A DNA stretch of 64,000 nucleotides from the human T2T-CHM13v2.0 reference genome, Homo sapiens: assembly GCF_009914755.1 (NCBI RefSeq), contig NC_060938.1. One strand, written 5' to 3'. Shown here piece by piece: positions 6,187 through 21,132 of the stretch; position 1 is the stretch's first letter; every line of letters begins with the position of its first letter. The notes beneath the pieces were generated by a model. The model made no database searches. It saw only the letters and a program-made list of their open reading frames with translations, and was not told the origin of the DNA. A program made the position numbers and the translations under genes.

Positions 6187-6455
6187 GGGGCCAACTTATC
6201 CCATAGGCACAGCAGGCGCAGCGGCTGAGCCCACACCACTTTCAGGGGGCCACAGAAAATGTTTCAATTTTAGCTTCTTTTAAAATCAGAAGAAAAATGA
6301 ATATAATAATAACAAATATATAGTGATTGGTCCAGCATAGATTATACTTGTCTTTACACCAATGAAGTCATAAAATATTTTAATTATTTTTTTAAATGCA
6401 GGAAGAAGCCCAGAAAAACCAAAGCGCCTAAGGCCCATGAAAGCTGTAATGACTC
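6187..6455. mobile_element. Short non-autonomous hAT-Tip100-type element (ORSL-like)
   Basis: cccataggcacagcaggcgcag...ggggccacagaaaatgttt...ttttaaaatcagaagaaaaatgaa...gcctaaggcccatgaaag, recalled as ORSL-like; ends approximate. Confidence 0.5.
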
Positions 6456-6729
6456 CTTACCATGAAGGTGAGCCAGGCTTAAAATCTCGCTTTTTCCCAT
6501 ATCCCCAGGCAGGCACCAGAGACTGCCCGTGGCATTGGGCATTTGATGAGGGCGAGCTGTTTCTGGTCTCGAACTCTCTCTGAAGAAACTCAGCTAGGGA
6601 TTGGGGCCTGTCCATGAACCAGGCTCCCTCAGCCCATCCAGAAGCCACTCCCACAACCTTGACTCGATTTTCTCCCTACCTCACCCCAGAGCTGAGACAC
6701 TTTCATGACTCCTCTGAGCATCTCTCCAG

Positions 6730-7445
<716 letters not shown>

Positions 7446-8129
7446 TTGGGGGCCAGGGAGGTGTGGGGCAATAGAACTCCTAAAATCAGTTCACGAAGAT
7501 GCTGTGATCTCAGTGTGGGTTTGGAGTGTGAGCCCCTTCTGCCTGATGTTCCAAAGCAACTCAGCGTGAGTGAGGCCTCTGCACCTCTCTCAGTTCACTC
7601 TTCTCCATCCCAAGGGAGGTGTGTGCCCCCTCACTTCCAGGAGTGTAATCAGGGATTCTCGTGCCCAGTGCCAGGTAGGGGGGAAGGGAAAAGAGACAGG
7701 GGTCTCCATCACCTCCTGTATAACCTCAACGCCTACTCAGCAGGAAGTGGGTAAAGAGTGGACAGAGGAGTTGAGGTGAAACAGAAGGTCGCCAGATGTG
7801 GGAACAGAGGAGGAGGTAGCTGACAGGTAGGACCAGAACCAGCCAGCTTTATCTGATTGTCTCGATGTCAATTTCACACTACTCTTTTCATGAGCAGGGT
7901 GGAGGATCCAACCCAGGCCAGGGTCAGGAGCATAGATGCTGAGTCTGAAGAGCGGGTGTGGGTGTCGGGAGGCAGGGGGGTTTGTAGGGCTGGCATGGAG
8001 CCCAGGACACATGTGGGAAGCACTGAACAGTTCAGCACAGCAGCTGTAGGCATTAGCCAGTTTAGTTAATCAGCAGTGCAAGCCCCCAAGGCTCAAGTCC
8101 TCTTTGTACAAAGATGACAGTAAACAGGA

Positions 8130-8380
8130 GTGGGCGCAGTGGGAAAAGAATAGACTTGAGAGTTAACCAGACCTAAATTTAAATTCTAATTCTGAGTCCA
8201 CTTGGCTTTAGGCAAATCACCTTATCTTTCTGGCCCCAAGTTCCCACATCTTTTAAATATAAAATGGGAATAATAATAATAATAATACTTACCTTATAAG
8301 GTTGTTGTGAGGGCTAGATGTACTTATATGAAAGAGAGAGTCCTGGCAGGTGGTAGGTGATGAATAAATGGTAGCCAGTA
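8130..8380 (+). mobile_element. MIR fragment
   Basis: ggcaaatcacctta...aaaatgggaataataat...taccttataaggttgttgtgaggg matches the MIR core and 3' part. Confidence 0.7.
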
Positions 8381-8644
8381 ATGGTGGTGAGAGAATCTTG
8401 TACTAACTAAATAGTATCACTCACACTATGTGCTTGAAGTCGAAACCAAGGCTTAAACTTCCAGGAGTGGTTCTTTAGTTGTGGGCTTAAAATGTACACA
8501 CAGGGTCTCACATATTGTCCCTGGGTTAAAATTTTTGTAAAATAAGTGTCATTTTTCTCTCTATGGGACACAGATAGAAGTGGTCAGGATGTTACAGGGA
8601 AGTGTATTCTTTCCTATTATCAAAGGGGTGATAATGCCCAGTTA

Positions 8645-9430
<786 letters not shown>

Positions 9431-10583
9431 TGCTGCTGCCTCATATTCTATATGCCTTGTACACTGTAACTCCACTGAAGTGCTGGTGGTGGTGGCGTGT
9501 GTGTGTGAGAGGGAGAGAGAGAACTGGGGCATCGGGAGGCCCCTAGCCCTCACACCTACCAGCCCAGCCACTGTGCAGAATGCAGGGATGAGTTGTTTCA
9601 TTTCAGGTGTTCACTCTGCTTTTTGCAGAACATATTGTCCCTTGAAGGATATTAATACAGGAAATGAATAAAGAGTGGCTTCAAAACAAATTTGAGACCA
9701 GGACAGCTTCCATCTTATGTGTTTCAGATAAATAAGCCCTTACAGTAATCAACTCTTCAGGGCCAGACCTCTCTCCCTGGAATATGAAGTGCTCCAGCAC
9801 ACTGTAAACAACAGTGATGTGACTCATTTCCTGAACTGTGTCGTGGCCATCTGCTCAAATATCTGCCTTCCTTTTCCTGTATTCTAATGATACAGCAACT
9901 CTATGGACAATTATGTAGCCATTAAAAATGGCAATTTAAATTTTCAAAGTTAAAATGCATAACAATGTGGGGAAAATGCCTATAATACAATGTTAAGTGA
10001 AACAATTGCACACAAGAGGTGCATGTATGTAAAATGTGTATGCACGAGGCCAAGGCCTAGAAGGACATGGAAAAGGAAGCTTGTTTTCAAAAACTGGAGA
10101 CTTCTTTTTTAAAGTTTCACATATACTTTTAAAATTAGAAATAAAGCAAGACGCTTCGTTGTGCAATTTCACTGCCATCAACTACAAACATAATGTTTAC
10201 ATACCGACCCAGTTTTTTTGGAGCTGGGAGGATCTCTAAGATTGATAAAAAATAGTTATTAAAATGGCAGATTTTTCTGGATATGGGAAAACTTATCATA
10301 AGAGAAGTATGTCGTTTCCTTATCCTGTTTGAAATTTTTTAATGGTTGGAGAACTTGTGAGGAAGGAGATTAAGAATGAAACAGTAATCTTTTCTTTAAA
10401 ATGTTATCTCACACCAGATACAGAGAATAAATGAGCAGTTTCCAATCCTTTTTAGGAAGGAGGCAGGACATAAATAAACAAAATATGGACTACATGAAAT
10501 ATAACTTAAGCAATCTCCCTAGATACATTTTTCAATAAACCTAAAATCTATTAGGTATTTTTGTAGTTCTTCATTTCCTTTAC

Positions 10584-10756
10584 TCACTTAAAGTCTTACT
10601 TGTCCTTGTTGCCTTGTTCTGCCTTTATTTTACTCACTGAGTCATCTGTTGTCAGCTTTGGGTACTTGAGGCTTGCTGGAGTGAAAAGAATTTTTTATAA
10701 TTCAGCTCTGTTTACTAATACATCTTTTTTAAGGTAGATATTGCACGTAAAAAGTG
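10584..10756. repeat. Inverted repeat pair 1, right arm (probable donor)
   Basis: tcacttaaagtcttacttgtccttgttgc...gatattgcacgtaaaaagtg is the reverse complement of 9162-9332. Confidence 0.95.
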
Positions 10757-10929
10757 TTTTTTTTTTTTAAAAATCAGCCAATGCCCTTGTGAAGCTACTT
10801 CATTTGCTCTGTTGGTCCAGGTCAGCTAAGTTTCCCACACATCTTTAGTATTGATGCATCAAAGGACTTAGTGAAATTAATCAACTGCATTTTAGAATGA
10901 AGGCTTCATTCCACAGGATGTGTGGGCCG

Positions 10930-11071
10930 TTAACAAAAGTGAATTTTTCCCAACTCAAAACGGTATAGAAAGGAAAATGTAAATGAAATGACTTGGAGTA
11001 AGTTCAGTATAAGGCTAATTTTTCTTAAGGGTAAGCTTGTGGTTTAGGTTAGAACTCATCAAGTTAATTGT
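10930..11071. repeat. Inverted repeat pair 2, left arm (probable donor)
   Basis: Reverse complement aligns to 12291-12431 with about 25 substitutions and 1 gap over 142 nt (~82%), including the exact 19-mer atttacattttcctttcta. Confidence 0.93.
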
Positions 11072-11439
11072 CTTCTGATCCTTGAAAGTCAAATCCAGAC
11101 ATCTTCTTGATGATTCCTGTTACCAAAGTCTCTGGTACAAGTGATGTTTCCTGAGCCTTCTTAAAGACTCTGATGCTAAGGAGGTCCTTCGGGAACCCAG
11201 TGCTAATAACGTATGATACTGGAATAAAAAAGCAATGGAGTAAATGAACTTGCTGAGAAGGACCCCAGTGAACCATTGTTCCTGAATATAAAAACTAATT
11301 CCTGAAGATTGTGGCCAAAAAGTAGGTCCCAGTGGAAAAGAAGGAGAATCAGAGTTTGGAAATGTGATGAAATTTCCATTGGCATAGCAGAGAGTAGATC
11401 TTGTCACTAGTTGACATGTGCTGCTGCCAAGGTGTGGCC

Positions 11440-11705
11440 CTTGGGAGAGTACAGCTAATGGCCTCAGCGTCACCTGGAGGTCTGTTACAAATGCAGATAG
11501 ACCACGAAAGGATTTTTGTCTCTTCGTTCACTTCCATCACCCTAGTGCCTTTAACAATGTCTGCACATAATTGCTGGACGAATGAATTTCTTGAGCCCAA
11601 TCCCAAATCATTGAACTAAAATCTCTGGGGGCAGGTCCCAAGAATCTGTATTTTAACAGGATCCCCAGTTGGTCCTCAGGCATAGTTTAGTGTGAGAACC
11701 ATTGC
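11440..11705. mobile_element. MER5A/B (hAT-Charlie) with an L2 3'-end-like piece inside (~11505-11588)
   Basis: tcagcgtcacctggag...gttacaaatgcaga, then later aaaatctctggggg...aatctgtattttaacag...tgagaaccattg; the intervening part ends in gaatgaat like an L2 tail. Confidence 0.6.
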
Positions 11706-12216
11706 CCTCCTGTACATGGATACTGGCCAGTGTAGTACAGTGTTGATTCCCCTGAAAGCACCAAACTCTAGAAACCTGAAAATGAAGGAACAGCCGCACC
11801 TTGGTTTCTACTATGATTATGATGATGATTCTCTGGTATTGCATAAAACGTTTACACCCAATATATCCAGGGGTTAGGTTAGGCAGTTACACTTATTCCC
11901 ATTTCACAGTAGAAAAACTTGGACATATGCAAGGTCAGATAATTAACAAAAAAAGAATCAAAACCTACCCCACTAGACAAAGTTTAGGAGATGATGTGCT
12001 AAGCCTGAACTGGACAACGTGACATAATTAGCAAAGAGTGAAGGACAGCACTCCACTTGGGTCTATTATTGTTATGACCAAGGTCATTTTAAAGTATCAG
12101 AGCCACTCTCCAGGCGAGTTATAGGAAGAGGCCACAAAGAACCCGAAGAGATGGCGTCTTTCAACCACCTCTGTTACTCTGCCAGTGATCTGAGAACAAA
12201 AGGCCCTCTTGGGCTA

Positions 12217-12290
12217 AAAAGAACAAGTTACGGAGTCAGAAGCGGGTATTAGGGAAGGGAAAGTGAGCCAATCCCTGGGGCTCACCAGGA
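12217..12290. repeat. Inverted repeat pair 3 arm (diverged reverse complement of 12903-12977)
   Basis: gtgagcc-aatccctg matches GTGAGCCCAATCCCTG, with collinear, mostly transition-type similarity (~65-70%) over ~70 nt. Confidence 0.65.
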
Positions 12291-12431
12291 ACAATTAATT
12301 TGTTTAGTTCTAACTAACCCATGGGTTTACCTTGAATGAAAGTTAGCATTATATTGAACTTACTCCGAGTCATTTTATTTACATTTTCCTTTCTACATCA
12401 TTTCGAATTGGGAAAAATTAGATTTTGTTAA
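12291..12431. repeat. Inverted repeat pair 2, right arm
   Basis: acaattaatttg...gggaaaaattagattttgttaa; reverse complement of 10930-11071. Confidence 0.93.
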
Positions 12432-13395
12432 TTTTAGCTCCTTGGGCAAAAGGCACCGCATTCATTCCCAGCATTATCATTCCCAACACTTCGCATAGTA
12501 TTAGATCACTTTCCTATAATCACTTCATTCTCTTTTATGAGACTTGAGGTTTAATTGGAGGTTCCAATAAGAGACTTTATGTGTTTAATGGATTTTGGTA
12601 TAATAATCAGAGTCTGAAATGCTAGTCAGAAGGCCAGTTGACTTCTAATGAGGCTGCACTTGGGAGAAAAGGGTTTTAAAGATACTACAAGTCTATGCTG
12701 TAGAAGTAGACATGCAAATGTTTAGGGAAAGATGTAAAGTGTCTTGTTACTTCTAAATCACAGGCATGTGTACTCCAAAACCTATTGTTAGACTGGGTTA
12801 ACTGGTGAAAAACATTCAAATTGATGAGTGGGCAGTTCAACTTTTGAGAGGGACTCAGTGAAAATAGTAACGGGACACTCGGATGCATTCTCCTGTTGGC
12901 CACTTCTGGAGGCTTCAGGGATTGGGCTCACCCTCCTTTCGCTGGTAACCCCTCGTGACCCCTCGGCCTGGGCTTCTCTTCCTCCTGCACGCTCCCCTGC
13001 AGAGTGGAACACAGACTTTCCAGCCCTCCTAACTGCAACCCTTCCTTACCGTCTCCAAAACATGCACCTGCTCACTTCTTTTTAATTATTACTTAAGGAA
13101 TTTTTCAACTGGACACGCTAAGGAAAATGGGATTACAAAATAAACAAGAAATGAGGAAATTGAATATTATGGGAAATCTTATATTTATAGCTATATCAAA
13201 GCAATTTCCCTAGGAAATTTTATGGTATATTGCTGGCTAGGCATTTTCTTACTTTCCCATTACTCGTGGGAATATTTTAAACAGAAGACAAGCACTCTTA
13301 CCATGGAGCTATATTAAACTTAATATATTTAAATACTACATATTGCATATCTCAAATATTACGTGTTTTGCCTACACATGGAAACTAATTTTTAA

Positions 13396-13812
<417 letters not shown>

Positions 13813-13893
13813 CACGAGCTTTTGACCCTGGAACTGCATGGATAGTCTTTGCCTTTCACCAAAGTGTAAGTGATGCTAACCACACTCGGTGAT

Positions 13894-14810
13894 CAGTGGT
13901 TCTCAAATTGGAATGTGCATGACAGACAGCTAAGGCACACAGTAGGAATTTAGATTCTTGGTCACCAATCCTACAAATGGATTCAGCAGGCCTGAGAGGG
14001 GCTCAGGAACCTGAATCTGCATTTGTGCCCACCTCCTAACTCCTGGGTGATTCTAAGGACTACTCTTGAACTCTAGATCCTGCCTGGAGAAGCAGGGTGC
14101 CCTGCCCTATCTGCATTGGACACTTGGGGCCACAGCTGCTGCCCTGTGAGGTATGAATTAGTCTCTGGGTTACTCCCTGGGGCCCCATTTATTCCATAAC
14201 TGCTTGAATTCTCTGAAGTCAAGCTTTGAGCTTAAGGTTGAAGAATTCTTCCCTAAGTATAATCTCCAAAGCTTCCTCTCCATGAGCTGCAGGACATCCT
14301 GTATTAATTGGGAACATTAATTAAGCTCCTTTACTTATCCTGGAAGGTCTCTATTGTTTCAATAAGTTGTTCAATTTGCCAGCCACATTAGCTCATAATT
14401 TCAGGATATGGACTCAGTTTCTTCTTAATCTGTTGCTCTAGTGGTTCCCGAACTTAGATGGGGACAAGAATTACTGCAGAGCTTATTAAACAAAGGGTGC
14501 CAAGCTCACCCAAGGCTTACACAGCCAAAATCTCTGGTGTCTGTGCTAGAGATTTTGGGATTCTGTGTTTGACAAGCCCTACTGGGGTTCAGATACCAAA
14601 CATTTAGAATTGTTGCATAATCCAGTTATTCTCAAATGTCAGGATGTATCAGGATCACCAAGGGGACTTGTTTAACAACATCACTGGGCCCTACCTCTCA
14701 GGTGTCTGGTTCGGCAGATTTGGTTGGCGTCTGAGAGTTGACATTTCTATCAAGTTCCCAAGTGACATCGTTATTTGTGGACCAGGGCCTACACGTAGAG
14801 AACCACTGAC
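13894..14810. mobile_element. Cluster of three MER5A/B-like fragments (~13894-14060, ~14440-14600, ~14623-14810)
   Basis: cagtggttctcaaa-, tagtggttcccgaac- and cagttattctcaaa-type termini; the last ends gagaaccactg. Confidence 0.6.
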
Positions 14811-16131
14811 TAAGCTAGTATCTGGGCCCAGGCTGCACTTACAGCCATGTGTCACCATCAAACCAAACATATGGTGGCTTTAAAGCAGCTTCTTATCAAA
14901 ACAAACACTTCCACTGAGCCCCACTAAATTCCTGCTTTTAGGCTGGGAGGGCCTTTTGTTCTCAGATCACTGGCAGAGTAGCAGAGGTGGATGAAACATG
15001 CTATCTCTCCAGGTTCTTTGTGGTCTCTCCCCATAACTCACCTGGAGAGTGGCCCTGACACTGCAAAATGACCTTGGCCATAGCAATAGTAGACCCAAGT
15101 GGAGTGCTGTCCCTCACTCTTCACTAGTTATATCACGTTGTTCAGTTCTGGCGTAGCACATCGGGCAGTTCTTGCTCCTGCCTTTTGATCACGCACAAAC
15201 ACTTCCCCAAGACTGAACCCCTCCTCAAATTTCATTTCTCCCCACCTCAATAGAACTCGTAAAGCACTATTTGGTAATGTCGGTTTTCCAGGCTGTTTCT
15301 GGAAAGATGGAGAAGAGAATATATCAAACGCTGCACTACACAACACTTCATCAAAATCTCCACCTTAGTTGTCTCCTTCTCTCTTGTCCTCCCTGCCTCC
15401 CACCAGTTTTTCTCTTGATCTCTTTCCTCCTCTGATTATGTAGAATAATTTAGGTGTCCTCCCCCCTTCCAATTTGCATCCACCCACCTGAATCAATTTA
15501 ACACCCCCATCTTCCTTCAGCAACTAGGGGATCTTCTTTGGGATCCTTCCTCCTTAGACATTAGGAGAGGATTGTAAAAATATATCCTTTCCCATCCCCA
15601 CTCCACCTTGACACCAACTCCAACAGTGGGAGCAAAGAGGTTCTCTTTAGGGGAGAATATTTGCCTTTATGGAGCATGTGATCCACCCCTCTGTGATCCC
15701 CTTCTTTCTCCAAGCAAAATGAGACAGGCACAGCTGGGAGATAGAAATCTCCCTTCTATGTGGGGCTTATGAGGTTGACATGCATCCCCATCTTTCCTGT
15801 AGGAGAATGCACTTGCCCATGCAATATGGATACTTGGAGCCTTTGGGTCAGGGCAGGGGAGTGAGAGAGAGAGAGGTGGGGAGGTGGAGGGTTCACTTAG
15901 AGTGGAGTCTTCAAATGCTTTGAGAGGCTTAGAGCCACCCAAAGCTATGTCTCCCTCATCACCCTCGGGTTCACACTACCCCCGTACATAGACCCTCTCC
16001 TCAGCCACCCTCACTGGGGTTCTTGGCATGGCAGCCTGCCCCCCATGTTGAGTTATCCCAACAGCCACAAAGTGTTTAGAGCTTCTTCTGAGTCTCCTGC
16101 AGCAGCACAGAGTTTCATGACACAGCATGGA

Positions 16132-16142
16132 ATGACTCAGCA
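16132..16142 (+). promoter_or_regulatory. Consensus ARE / NF-E2 / AP-1 site, overlapping a TEAD-type GGAATG
   Basis: catggaATGACTCAGCAaag is an exact match to RTGACTCAGCA; motif only. Confidence 0.5.
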
Positions 16143-16257
16143 AAGTCAAATGAGGGCAGAGAAGACAATCAGAGGGAATTACAACACTTTGAGTAGAATG
16201 ATGAGAAAAGGCCCTTATTAAAGAGCACGCACGAAGTTCAGACTGCCAAACACTGTA

Positions 16258-16271
16258 GTGCCATCTGCCGG
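16258..16271 (-). promoter_or_regulatory. Candidate CTCF core motif
   Basis: Reverse strand reads CCGGCAGATGGCAC, matching CCRSYAGRKGGCRS at all positions; occupancy unknown. Confidence 0.6.
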
Positions 16272-17694
16272 CTGAGGGCCCTCTTGCATAGGCCCCCATT
16301 CTTGAAGCTATTCTCCACGCCCCGAGCCATGGCCAGGATCTCTGAGACCACTGGAGATACTTTCGCTGTCTGTGTGACCTAGATTTCAAAAGAGGTCGTT
16401 CTATGAGTCTGTCATGCTCTAATGGAACCTCTCTCTGTCCTTGAGGAACTTGGATGATCTAAAACTCAGAGGGATCTAAAACTGTTGAAAGGCATTGAAG
16501 GTGTTGAAATGAAAGAAAGAAAATATACTAAACCTAGCAGCTAAAATATGTCCTTTGGATGTTTTGTATGTGCCTAAAATTCTTCAAGATACCATAAAAT
16601 GGTCACCAACTACACTATTAATGTCATTGTGTAAATGATCATTGTCCTTCTCATGCCCCTAATTGTTAAAGACCACCAGCTGCAATCCAGCTCCTTGGTG
16701 GACAGGCATAACCGCGGACTTTGGATTACATCCCCTCTATTTCTTCTGCCCTATATTTATAGACATAAGTGATCCTTAAATTTGCTAATGAAGATGGATC
16801 CTAGTTTCAGTGAGATCAACGTTGCTGGCTGATTATTTATCAATACATTTTAACCAGGAATTGCTTCCAGAATCATAAAGGCAGCAGAAATCCAGGCATG
16901 TATTTGGAATTTGTCTTTAAATTCTAATACCTTTGTCTAAAGACTTTACTGCTACATCCATTTCTCTACTAGATGAGCAAAATACTTTTCCCTGGACACT
17001 AAGGTTAACTTCTGCTTTTTCATCTCCTAGAAGTGTTAGCCATTTGGACCTTTGTTTAACAGCTTCTTTGAAGCGTTATGCTCTGACAGCTTGCCTGATG
17101 GATGGAGCTGTCAGCATATCCCCAGTCCAGAGATGAGGAGGACATTACCTCACCTACCCACTCTATAAATCAGATGAATAAAAATTAGTACCAAGCTAGG
17201 CCCAGGGATCCTTTCTCATTTTAGTACTCTTTGTAGATTATAATCTTCAGAATGTGCTTCAGGAAAAAAAAAAAAAAGAAAAAGACTTTAATGTTGCTTT
17301 GCTCTAAAGAATTAGCATTGATTTACTCTACAAAATAACTGCTCATGGCTAAGATATTTGAAAAAATTAGTACTATGTGCACAAACCTGTCCTCTGTGAC
17401 CTGCAATCATAACTTTAGGGGTTGGAGGTCTGATCTGAAGTGCAGAGAGGGAGATATTAGCAGAAATGTCAATACCCAAGGGGGACTGGGCAGAGTGGGC
17501 AGGGCAGAGATGAGATGCCAAAGTGAGGCAACCAGAGGCACTCAGGAGAGGTATCAAGGAGAAAAGAAAGCCTTTCCTCACCCATCAGAGACAATTACTT
17601 CTGTGGTTTCCAGGACGTTTCTTTACAGATCTACCTACATCTTTACATGTCGGTTTTCCCTGGTAGCCCCTGAACCCCTTGACGTTAGGAACTG

Positions 17695-17780
17695 AGACTC
17701 ATTCATCTTTGTGTCCCCAGGTTCCCAGCCCTAGGTCCCATGGCCGGCATTCAGTGTAAGATCTATGAGTGAATGAATGG
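17695..17780 (+). mobile_element. L2 3'-end fragment
   Basis: tcattcatctttgtgtcccca...gagtgaatgaatgg. Confidence 0.55.
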
Positions 17781-19109
17781 GATCAGGTACTTTAGCAAAA
17801 TAACTAGGGTAACTCTGGATGAGAAGAGAACGACATAGTCTGGCAGAGGTATGTAGAAAAAAAATACCCAGAGTATGAATATGTAAAAAGGAATTGTGGG
17901 AAGTAAACGGCAGCAATAAACATGTGATCTCATACTTCATTCTTAGCTGAGAAAACAGAATTCTTACGCTGCAGACACATGATGCTGTGTTATAGACCTC
18001 AAGTTCTTCACTGGGGAAGAAATCAGCAGTTAGACTGTGTGTTTTCCTAGGTCACCACTTTGCCCTGCTCCAAGTTGACACAGAACTGGTATTCGCTCCC
18101 ATTTCCCTGATGACCGTTGTGTCTCCCTTGGGACTTGGGGTAGTTTTAAATCAACCATGGAGTGGTTTCCAGTTCTGGCCCCACCGTGTTCATGTTACTG
18201 AAGTTTCAGGGTTTCAGCTTTCACCATCTGTAAAATTTAAATGGCAACACTATGCCTTGGCTGCTAAGCAGGACTAGAATAAAAAGTAAGATGTTGTCAG
18301 GAAAGCCTGTAAGGCGTTTGCATGGCACAGGGGTAAAAATAGCCAAAAGGCAGATAAATGCAGTCAAATATTTTGTCATTTGCTTTGCCTTAAAATTTTC
18401 ACTACTCTTCATGAAAATGAAAAGATGTCCTTTTGCAGGGTGACAGCTGCTGTTGGTTGCAGGAAGCTGCTGTCTGCTACTGATAAACAAATGACAACTT
18501 CCCCTGAATGGGTCCATATATTGCCGGAAGCAGATTTATGATTAAATTTTTGCTGGCCTTTTTTTTTTTTTGACCACGGAAAAAGATTTGGCTGGAGTGA
18601 GTATATTTCCCTCTTGACCAAATCCTTTGGTGTTTTGAAAACTTTCCAAGTGAGAAAATGAACCCTTTTACCCAGCTTGAGTCAGATGCTCAAAACACAA
18701 GATAAAAATAGCTTCTTGGGAAGCTGTCACACTGCTTTGCTCTGCCCCCAGGATGGTTAACCCATTCACAGGGCCTTCAGCGCAGTGAGTGAGCTCCCCC
18801 GGCTTTTGTTAGAGATGGTCCTTCTCACTTTTCATTTAGGATGTCCTTGTTACGACCCATGTGAAGTCACCTGTGATTATGAACAGGAAACTTGAGGGTG
18901 AGCCAAATGTCAAAGAGCTCTTTCCAAACCATCTGCACTGAGGTGCTTTCCTTGTGGAAGGGATCAGTTTTTGGGCTTAACTCTTCCTATTTCTAATAGT
19001 AGTTTATGGTTTGACTTCTCTCTCCTAGACAATTTAATAAATCTGATTAATCATTATGTCAATTTTAATAAGAAAAATGGCATGGTTGATATTAAAAGTT
19101 AACAGTCAA

Positions 19110-20747: not shown

Positions 20748-21132
20748 TGGTATGGTTTGGCTGTGTATCCCCACCCAAATCTCATCTGGAATTGTAATAC
20801 CCACATGTTGAGGAAGGGACCTGTAATCCCCATGTGTCAAGGGAGAGAGGTGATTGGACCACGGGGGCAGTTTCCCCCATGCTCTTCTTTTGATAGTGAG
20901 TTCTCACGAGATCTGATGGTTTTATAAGCGTCTGGCATTTCCCCTGCTTGCAGTTCTCTCTCCTGATACCATGTGGAGAAGATCCTTACTTCCTCTTCAC
21001 CTTCCACCATGATTGTGAGTTTCCTGAGGCCTTCCCAGCCATGCGGAACCGTGAGTCAATTAAACATCTTTCCTTTATAAATTACACAGCCTTGGGTATT
21101 TCTTTACAGCAGTGTGAAAATGGACTAATACA
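20748..21132 (+). mobile_element. THE1D/MSTA-like solo LTR
   Basis: tggtatggtttggctgtg...ggactaataca; perfect TSD gctgc at 20743-20747 and 21133-21137. Confidence 0.9.

What the first reader, a model, noticed from the sequence alone, without database searches (positions are those of the whole stretch)
12206..12451. Chimeric inverted insert joining two donors 1.8 kb apart, lying inside the interval it skips
Seen: the + strand of 12217-12431 reads as the minus strand of 12977 down to ~12904, fused directly to the minus strand of 11071 down to 10930. Donor A reads ...CCTCCAGAA|GTGGCC, donor B reads ...GGATCAGAAG|ACAATTAAC, and the insert junction is ...CCAGGA|ACAATTAAT. A degenerate direct repeat, CTTGGGC(T)AAAA, flanks the insert (12208-12219 and 12441-12451), and there is no poly(A) tail. 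Inference offers two models. One is a DNA template switch at the shared CAGAAG, which predicts one extra nucleotide at the join. The other is a cDNA piece of a GT-AG-spliced minus-strand RNA inserted antisense into its own intron; it fits the join with one substitution and no indel, although both splice sites are weak today. In RNA, the insert could act as a cis splint holding the two donor ends together.
Basis: partly seen in the sequence, partly recalled or inferred. Interest (0 to 1): 0.78.

Follow-up and report, generated by a model that had tools for sequence, protein, structure and literature searches.

The report
Ancient patchwork of inverted local copies
A 439-base stretch in an intron of the human non-coding gene LINC02284 is stitched from inverted copies of three nearby pieces of the same locus, most likely an old, harmless copying error of a polymerase that switched templates.

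Summary
The chimeric inverted insert is real and larger than reported. Window 12291-12431 is the reverse complement of 10930-11071 (82%, 142 nt). 12232-12290 is the reverse complement of 12904-12962 (about 73%; 0 of 500 shuffles reach its score). Directly to the left, 11993-12207(-12230) is the reverse complement of 14925-15162 (85-88%). The patch is therefore C'A'B', copied from three colinear donors spread over 4.2 kb, and it lies between two of them. A fourth inverted pair, 9158-9335 / 10581-10760, sits beside it. None of the four has another copy in the genome. No such two-copy pair occurs in 200 kb of control DNA or in the rest of the window.

The patch as a whole has no poly(A) and no flanking duplication. 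The A/B join is exactly GT..AG on the minus strand. The C/A join is not, and all four candidate splice sites are no better than random GT or AG sites.

Best reading (about 0.55): one serial template-switching (copy-choice) event, since drifting neutrally. A cDNA of a spliced RNA gets about 0.07. Only outgroup genomes can settle it.

The parts
11993..12207 (+). C' : inverted copy of donor C (secure part)
   Evidence: Reverse complement of 14948-15162. 26 mismatches in 215, no gaps. Only this one partner in the genome.
12208..12231 (+). Joint between C' and A' of uncertain origin. The first 17 nt are a direct repeat of 12441-12456.
   Evidence: 12208-12224 matches 12441-12456 in 14 of 17 columns but donor C in only 9 of 17. 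It is the worst 17-nt window of the C'/C alignment (316 of 5000 permutations have one as bad). No other local template was found for 12218-12233.
12232..12290 (+). A' : inverted copy of donor A
   Evidence: Local score 23, reached by 0 of 500 shuffles. 74% identity over 58 aligned positions with 2 gap events.
12291..12431 (+). B' : inverted copy of donor B
   Evidence: 81.7% over 142 columns. Only this one partner in the genome.
10930..11071 (.). Donor B
12904..12962 (.). Donor A
14925..15162 (.). Donor C
12441..12456 (+). Right copy of the direct repeat CTTGGGC-AAAAGGCAC, 9 nt to the right of B'
9158..9335 (.). D : one arm of a neighbouring fourth inverted pair
   Evidence: 88.9% over 180 nt against 10581-10760. 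Unique in the genome.
10581..10760 (.). D' : the other arm of that pair

Best explanation
The stretch 11993-12431 is a fossil of one complex copy-choice event. The inferred course is as follows. A polymerase copying this locus left its template at what is now 11992|12432 and copied the opposite strand, moving in one direction. It copied about 215-238 nt of C, about 59 nt of A and 142 nt of B, skipping roughly 1.9 kb and 1.8 kb between them. It then returned to the original template. Between C' and A' it may have made a brief 17-nt visit to the original template.

This is the pattern of serial template switching during replication or break-induced repair (FoSTeS / MMBIR type). A reverse transcriptase jumping along an unspliced RNA of the locus would leave the same product and is counted in this reading.

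The patch was fixed tens of millions of years ago and has since drifted neutrally. Its only predictable effect is that the LINC02284 intron RNA can form long imperfect duplexes.

Shown: the anatomy, the uniqueness in the genome, the significance of the arms, and the absence of poly(A) and of outer duplications. Inferred: the single event, the type of polymerase, the age, and the neutrality.
For: 1. All three pieces are inverted, abut each other, and stand in the same order as their donors.
2. The donors lie within 0.5-2.7 kb of the patch, and the patch lies between two of them. Inverted templated insertions close to their template are the published MMBIR signature (PMC8421209, passages).
3. 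It is not a repeat family. Own-genome searches find only the local partner for each piece. The same searches do find old repeats at 68-78% identity, which shows they are sensitive enough.
4. Clustering: the window's only two-copy pairs at E<=1e-6 are three inverted pairs within 9158-15162, with the weaker A pair as a fourth. There are 0 such pairs in 20 control stretches of 10 kb from other chromosomes.
5. The outer flanks show no target-site duplication and no poly(A).
6. A 6-nt direct repeat, CAGAAG, sits at the A exit and the B entry (P = 0.017 against random position pairs).
7. The direct repeat at the C'/A' joint matches the right flank. Template-switch events that return upstream of the departure point are reported to leave such duplications (PMC7954356, passages).
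8. The candidate splice sites have no splice-site context.
9. Substitutions look neutral: 62 transitions and 25 transversions in 601 aligned positions. Transitions that keep a G-U pair number 35 in plus-strand RNA and 27 in minus-strand RNA.
Against: 1. The A/B join is exactly GT..AG on the minus strand. It is the unique best of 483 candidate joins, of which 3 are GT..AG. Under this model that is a coincidence of roughly 0.6%.
2. A GT also follows donor C at the lenient boundary 14925. Both exits read A|GTGG.
3. Using the CAGAAG microhomology predicts a product one base longer than observed.
4. Microhomology at the C/A join is not significant (exact run of 4, P = 0.25), and I saw none at the two outer junctions by eye.
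5. Published short-range template switches in apes are much shorter: median 12 nt, maximum 128 nt for the copied fragment (PMC7954356).
6. Divergence differs between the pieces (K2P 0.149 for C, 0.207 for B, 0.329 for A). One event is therefore not proven.
Confidence: 0.55

Rival explanations
1. A cDNA of a GT-AG-spliced, three-exon minus-strand RNA (exons C, A, B) was captured at a double-strand break inside its own A-B intron, in the opposite orientation. This would be a class-2 'templated sequence insertion'.
For: The three pieces are colinear, in one orientation, and abut, like exons. The best A/B join of 483 candidates is the GT..AG one and needs no indel. A GT follows donor C at 14924-14923 if C' is extended to 12230. 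The absence of poly(A) and of an outer duplication fits class-2 insertions, and spliced cDNAs are known donors for these (PMC5110952, passages; PMC4516963, search listing and start of abstract only).
Against: The best C/A join is GT..CG. The best GT..AG pair ranks 23rd of 1400 and needs a 2-nt indel. Secure homology to C stops at 12207, which leaves up to 24 nt that a splice would not produce. Both 5' sites match CAGGTAAGT (a consensus I recalled, not taken from a call) at 3 of 9 positions, and 87% of all 378 minus-strand GTs do as well. Pyrimidine fractions upstream of the AGs are 0.44 and 0.28, and 63% and 91% of all 532 AGs do as well. The roughly 9% change on the donor lineage cannot have erased good sites. 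No minus-strand gene is annotated (hub table). No repeat-derived promoter was found upstream of C. The described class-2 insertions come from distant loci, whereas this one lies inside its own source.
Confidence: 0.07
2. A long inverted duplication of the whole 10930-15162 region was inserted first. Two internal deletions of about 1.4-1.9 kb then reduced the copy to C'A'B'.
For: This explains the colinearity and the single orientation without any skipping. The direct repeat CAGAAG at the A/B deletion ends is what microhomology-mediated deletion leaves. That long inverted repeats are unstable is established knowledge, recalled rather than drawn from a call.
Against: It needs three events. The copy would have had to insert inside its own source. 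The donors show no comparable deletions. The predicted join is again one base longer than observed.
Confidence: 0.15
3. Two steps. C' arrived first. Later the two-piece chimera A'B' (12225-12440) was inserted 17 nt to its right, duplicating a 16-17-nt target.
For: The direct repeat 12208-12224 / 12441-12456 matches in 14 of 17 columns, and 21 of 2000 shuffles score as high. Its left copy fits the right copy better than it fits donor C (14 against 9 of 17). That an inverted repeat can itself provoke further breaks is an inference.
Against: Two independent inverted insertions would have to land 17 nt apart and, by chance, in donor order. B'/B is more diverged than C'/C (17.7% against 12.1% mismatches), the opposite of the predicted order, though the difference is not significant by my rough estimate. 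Fillers of 7 and 9 nt would remain unexplained. There is no poly(A), so this is not an L1-type insertion.
Confidence: 0.15
4. The pieces are copies of an old interspersed repeat, or nested transposable elements.
For: Old repeats do occur nearby: 11588-11708 and about 14604-14814 each have several hits at 68-78% identity on other chromosomes.
Against: None of C, A, B, D or their copies has any other match in the 3.1-Gb assembly, in searches that detect 68-78% relatives. There are no Rfam families apart from Alu-related hits elsewhere.
Confidence: 0.02

Closest known systems
MMBIR / FoSTeS templated insertions (serial replication template switching)
   Same: Inverted copies of nearby sequence, several template pieces chained together, no poly(A), and a short direct repeat at one internal join. 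The published signature is an inverted insertion in proximity to its template (PMC8421209).
   Different: Microhomology is significant at only one of four junctions and is off by one base there. The three templates are used in strict order along one strand. The event is an old fixed germline change, not a disease or tumour rearrangement.
Short-range template-switch mutations in great apes (four-point model)
   Same: Both create inverted repeats from local sequence and can leave a duplication when the return point lies upstream of the departure point (PMC7954356).
   Different: Those events copy a median of 12 nt and at most 128 nt in one excursion. Here 439 nt come from three templates 1.8-1.9 kb apart.
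Class-2 templated sequence insertions (cDNA patches at double-strand breaks)
   Same: No target-site duplication around the whole patch and no poly(A). Several joined pieces resemble spliced exons (PMC5110952).
   Different: The donors are local rather than distant. Only one of the two joins is GT..AG, and no site has splice-site context.
L1-mediated processed retrocopies / class-1 templated insertions
   Same: Loss of the sequence between the donors.
   Different: No poly(A), no outer target-site duplication, and no L1-type arrangement of the repeat that is present.
Reverse-transcriptase template jumping that mimics splicing
   Same: Colinear 'false introns' bounded by short direct repeats (PMC2923612 and PMC8240250, search listing and start of abstracts only).
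   Different: Those are artefacts in vitro. Here the product would have had to be integrated into the germline.

Membership tests
L1-mediated retrocopy / class-1 templated insertion | Target-site duplication of at least 5 bp flanking the whole insert | tested here: not met
   The flanks of 11993 and 12431 score 6.0, and 1082 of 2000 shuffles score as high.
L1-mediated retrocopy / class-1 templated insertion | Poly(A) tract at the 3' end of the sense copy | tested here: not met
   B' ends ...GTTAA and is followed by TTTTAGCTCC. There is no A or T run at either end.
Spliced cDNA (any route) | Every internal join coincides with GT..AG in the donors | tested here: not met
   A/B: yes, rank 1 of 483. 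C/A: the best join is GT..CG, and the best GT..AG pair ranks 23rd of 1400 with a 2-nt length difference.
Spliced cDNA (any route) | Donor boundaries have splice-site context (5' consensus, polypyrimidine tract) | tested here: not met
   3 of 9 consensus matches at both 5' sites. Pyrimidine fractions 0.44 and 0.28. All are at or below the median of random GT or AG sites in 9000-16000. The consensus motif was recalled.
Spliced cDNA (any route) | A transcript on the required (minus) strand | not testable with these tools
   No minus-strand gene appears in the hub's RefSeq table. No RNA-seq data were available.
MMBIR / FoSTeS templated insertion | Inserted sequence is a copy, often inverted, of nearby sequence | tested here: met
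   Three inverted templates lie within 0.5-2.7 kb of the patch.
MMBIR / FoSTeS templated insertion | Microhomology at the junctions | tested here: inconclusive
   A/B: exact run of 6, P = 0.017, but the product is one base short. C/A: run of 4, P = 0.25. Outer junctions: none seen by eye.
MMBIR / FoSTeS templated insertion | Formed in one event | not testable with these tools
   This needs outgroup genomes. Divergences of D, C and B are compatible with one age by my rough chi-square (about P = 0.1, computed by hand from the counts). A is higher.
Interspersed repeat family | Multiple dispersed copies in the genome | tested here: not met
   Only the local partner is found for each piece. The same searches recover 68-78% repeats elsewhere.

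The most novel reading that the evidence does not exclude
The patch is a germline fossil of RNA-templated repair in cis. A now extinct, weakly spliced three-exon antisense RNA of this locus was reverse-transcribed and pasted into its own intron. That would preserve the exon structure of a transcript that no longer exists. It would also show that local nascent RNA can patch chromosome breaks in the primate germline.
Probability: 0.07. Interest if true: 0.6.

Novelty: new member of a known kind. Interest (0 to 1): 0.33.

Why it matters
The locus is a clean, fully resolved, old example of a multi-piece inverted templated insertion: three or four pieces, with a fourth inverted pair next door. Such events are mostly known from patients and tumours, or at a scale of tens of bases in ape comparisons. 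With primate outgroups the locus could date the event, show whether it happened in one step, and test whether RNA or DNA was the template. Nothing suggests a function. The practical consequence is long-range double-stranded RNA potential in an intron of LINC02284.

Tried and rejected
1. Repeat family: own-genome searches with 12206-12451, 10400-13450, 9030-10800, 13830-15400 and 15150-16900 found no further copies.
2. Rfam: only Alu/SRP-type hits at 13531-13837, plus one weak chance hit.
3. Does homology to donor C resume to the right of 12431, which would make A'B' an insertion inside a longer C copy? No. The best score is 11, against a shuffle mean of 10.7 (218 of 500 shuffles as high).
4. 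Further short templated bits in the right flank, the left flank and the C/A joint: none above shuffles (204, 237 and 268 of 300 as high).
5. Homology of each donor running on past its join into the neighbouring piece: not significant (130, 119, 276 and 857 of 1000 as high).
6. Target-site duplication for the D' copy: none (324 of 2000 as high).
7. Coding potential: the longest stop-free frame in the patch is 74 aa, and the three frames scanned gave 0 Pfam families.
8. Selection for RNA pairing: transitions that keep G-U number 35 in plus-strand RNA and 27 in minus-strand RNA. Only B'/B is lopsided (13 against 4), which is not significant after four tests.
10. Literature: a search for retrocopies inserted in their 'own intron' returned 29 papers, and none of the 10 listed contains that phrase. 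The 3 papers that mention LINC02284 are, by their titles and the start of their abstracts, on unrelated topics; I did not open them.
11. A target-site duplication for the L1 next to the chr10 copy of the 160-bp piece: not found within the 2 kb fetched upstream.

Full report
**What is there.**
- Arm A is real but shorter than stated. 12232-12288 against 12962-12906 scores 23 in a local alignment. 500 dinucleotide shuffles searched against the same 3.8 kb give mean 11.7, sd 1.3 and maximum 17, so 0 of 500 reach it. It is also the best match on either strand of the whole window. The extension to 12217/12977 matches at only 7 of 15 (hand count).

**A third piece.** A search of the window's own assembly with 10400-13450 showed that 11993-12219 is an inverted copy of 14936-15162 at 87%. 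A more permissive blastn extends this to 11993-12230 / 14925-15162, 85.3% over 238 nt without gaps. The stretch is therefore a three-piece patch, C'A'B', at 11993-12431. Its donors lie in the same order on the chromosome: B at 10930-11071, A at 12904-12962, C at 14925-15162. All are in one orientation, and the patch sits between B and A. A fourth inverted pair lies alongside: 9158-9335 against 10581-10760, 88.9% over 180 nt.

**Not a repeat family, and not a common pattern.**
- Own-genome searches return only the local partner for each piece.
- The same searches recover old repeats at 68-78% identity at 11588-11708 and about 14604-14814, so sensitivity is adequate.
- A word-size-7 self-comparison of 7000-18000 with three Alus masked finds these four inverted pairs. 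It finds nothing else significant apart from three weak chance-level hits (E 0.14-0.37), one of them direct.
- In the whole 64-kb window these are the only two-copy pairs at E<=1e-6.
- In 20 arbitrarily chosen 10-kb control stretches from 20 other places in the genome (200 kb), the same procedure finds 0 such pairs of at least 100 nt, against 3 in window 9158-15162.
- The cluster is therefore a local peculiarity: either one complex event or a cascade at an unstable site.

**Ends of the patch.** There is no poly(A) or poly(T) at either end. The outer flanks share no duplication (1082 of 2000 shuffles score as high). No further templated bits were found in either flank. Homology to donor C does not resume beyond 12431.

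It is probably real: 12208-12224 against 12441-12456 matches in 14 of 17 columns, and 21 of 2000 shuffles score as high. Its left copy lies at the C'/A' joint, though. That 17-mer matches donor C at only 9 of 17 and is the worst 17-nt window of the C'/C alignment (316 of 5000 permutations have one as bad). Secure C' therefore ends at 12207, and 12208-12231 is a joint of mixed or unknown origin. There are two readings:
- a short return to the original template in the middle of a serial switching event, since events that return upstream of the departure point are reported to leave duplications (PMC7954356, passages); or
- a real flank duplication of a later A'B' insertion (the two-step rival).

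**The joins.**
- For A/B I scored all 483 combinations of exit and entry points. The unique best is 12904|11071, which is GT..AG on the minus strand. Only 3 of the 483 combinations are GT..AG. This is the strongest point for splicing.
- The competing signal is the shared CAGAAG, an exact run of 6. Such a run occurs in 1.7% of random position pairs from this region. Using it predicts a product one base longer than observed.
- For C/A the best joins, tied, are 14925|12963 (GT..CG) and 14924|12962. The best GT..AG pair ranks 23rd of 1400 and needs a 2-nt length change. Microhomology there is not significant.
- Both exits read A|GTGG, which I cannot explain.

**Splice-site context.**
- On the minus strand both candidate 5' sites match the recalled textbook consensus CAGGTAAGT at 3 of 9 positions, the GT included. 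87% of all 378 GTs in 9000-16000 do as well.
- The pyrimidine fraction in the 18 nt before the AG is 0.44 for B and 0.28 for A. 63% and 91% of all 532 AGs do as well.
- Pooled K2P distance for C, A and B is about 0.19 (hand calculation), so each lineage has changed at roughly 9% of sites. That is too little to have erased good sites.
- No minus-strand gene is annotated (hub table), and nothing repeat-like that could have served as a promoter lies upstream of C.
- I therefore rate the spliced-cDNA model at about 0.07 despite the exact GT..AG at one join.

**Were the donors already apart?** The intervals between them contain unique sequence plus repeats whose copies differ from each other more than the arms do: 68-78% against 82-88% identity. 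The skips were therefore real at the time of copying. This is an inference, because repeat copies can come from different source elements.

**Age and selection.** K2P distances are 0.105 (D), 0.149 (C), 0.207 (B) and 0.329 (A, 58 nt). There are 62 transitions, 25 transversions and 4 gap events in 601 aligned positions. At commonly used mammalian neutral rates, which I recalled, this means tens of millions of years. I cannot name the lineage without outgroups. There is no sign of selection for pairing. Transitions that keep a G-U pair number 35 in plus-strand RNA and 27 in minus-strand RNA; only B'/B is lopsided (13 against 4). The patch has no coding potential.

**What it can do.** In RNA of either strand the arms can form long imperfect duplexes. 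Dimer energies in plus-strand RNA are -152 (B), -365 (C), -76 (A) and -242 (D) kcal/mol, against -43 to -136 for shuffled arms. The plus strand is the intron of LINC02284 between the exons at 6402-6467 and 20954-21050 (hub table). This is a generic property of inverted copies. The pairs cross each other (B..C'A'B'..A..C), so they cannot all form as simple nested helices. The 'splint' idea has no support beyond this.

**Verdict.** The best mechanism is serial copy-choice: a DNA polymerase in a FoSTeS/MMBIR-type event, or less likely a reverse transcriptase on unspliced RNA. My estimates are 0.55 for this, 0.15 for a long inverted duplication trimmed by deletions, 0.15 for a two-step history, 0.07 for a spliced cDNA, and 0.02 for a repeat family. 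The event is a new example of a known kind. Its interest is moderate and lies mainly in its clean anatomy and in the testable RNA-versus-DNA question.

**Papers.** I read passages of PMC5110952, PMC8421209 and PMC7954356. PMC4516963, PMC2923612 and PMC8240250 I saw only as search listings with the start of their abstracts.

Noticed in passing
window 10398-10557; L003 2001-2160 (G000:C10:57242229-57242388): A 160-bp stretch has exactly two copies in the genome, here and on contig C10, at 96% identity. On C10 it follows the 3' end and A-rich tail of an L1 element after 21 nt. In the window it ends 17 nt after an AATAAA, and it lies 23 nt left of D'. It looks like a small L1-related transduction or templated insertion. 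The direction of transfer is undecided.
   Followed up: partly
window 9158-9335 and 10581-10760: A fourth unique inverted pair (88.9% over 180 nt, K2P 0.105), 170 nt left of donor B. It may belong to the same complex event or be a somewhat younger one.
   Followed up: partly
window 12903-12900 and 14924-14921 (minus strand): Both places where copying left a donor read A|GTGG on the minus strand, a shared 5-mer at the two exits. Unexplained.
   Followed up: no
window 11941-11951 and 12423-12433: An exact 11-nt inverted match (AATTAACAAAA / TTTTGTTAATT) between a site 42 nt left of the patch and the last bases of B' plus 2 nt of flank. It is part of pair I6 (22 nt, 77%). It could be chance in AT-rich sequence or a trace of the return switch.
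   Followed up: no
window 11588-11708 and about 14604-14814: Old interspersed repeats with several hits at 68-78% identity on other chromosomes. Family not identified, because no repeat library was available.
   Followed up: no
window 12291-12431 vs 10930-11071: Of the 17 transitions between B' and B, 13 keep a G-U pair in plus-strand RNA and 4 in minus-strand RNA. This is nominally lopsided but not significant after four tests.
   Followed up: no
window 13531-13837: Rfam hits below the gathering score to SRP RNA and to the Alu-derived miRNA families mir-3135, mir-1268 and mir-619, all inside the Alu at 13482-13817. Ordinary.
   Followed up: no
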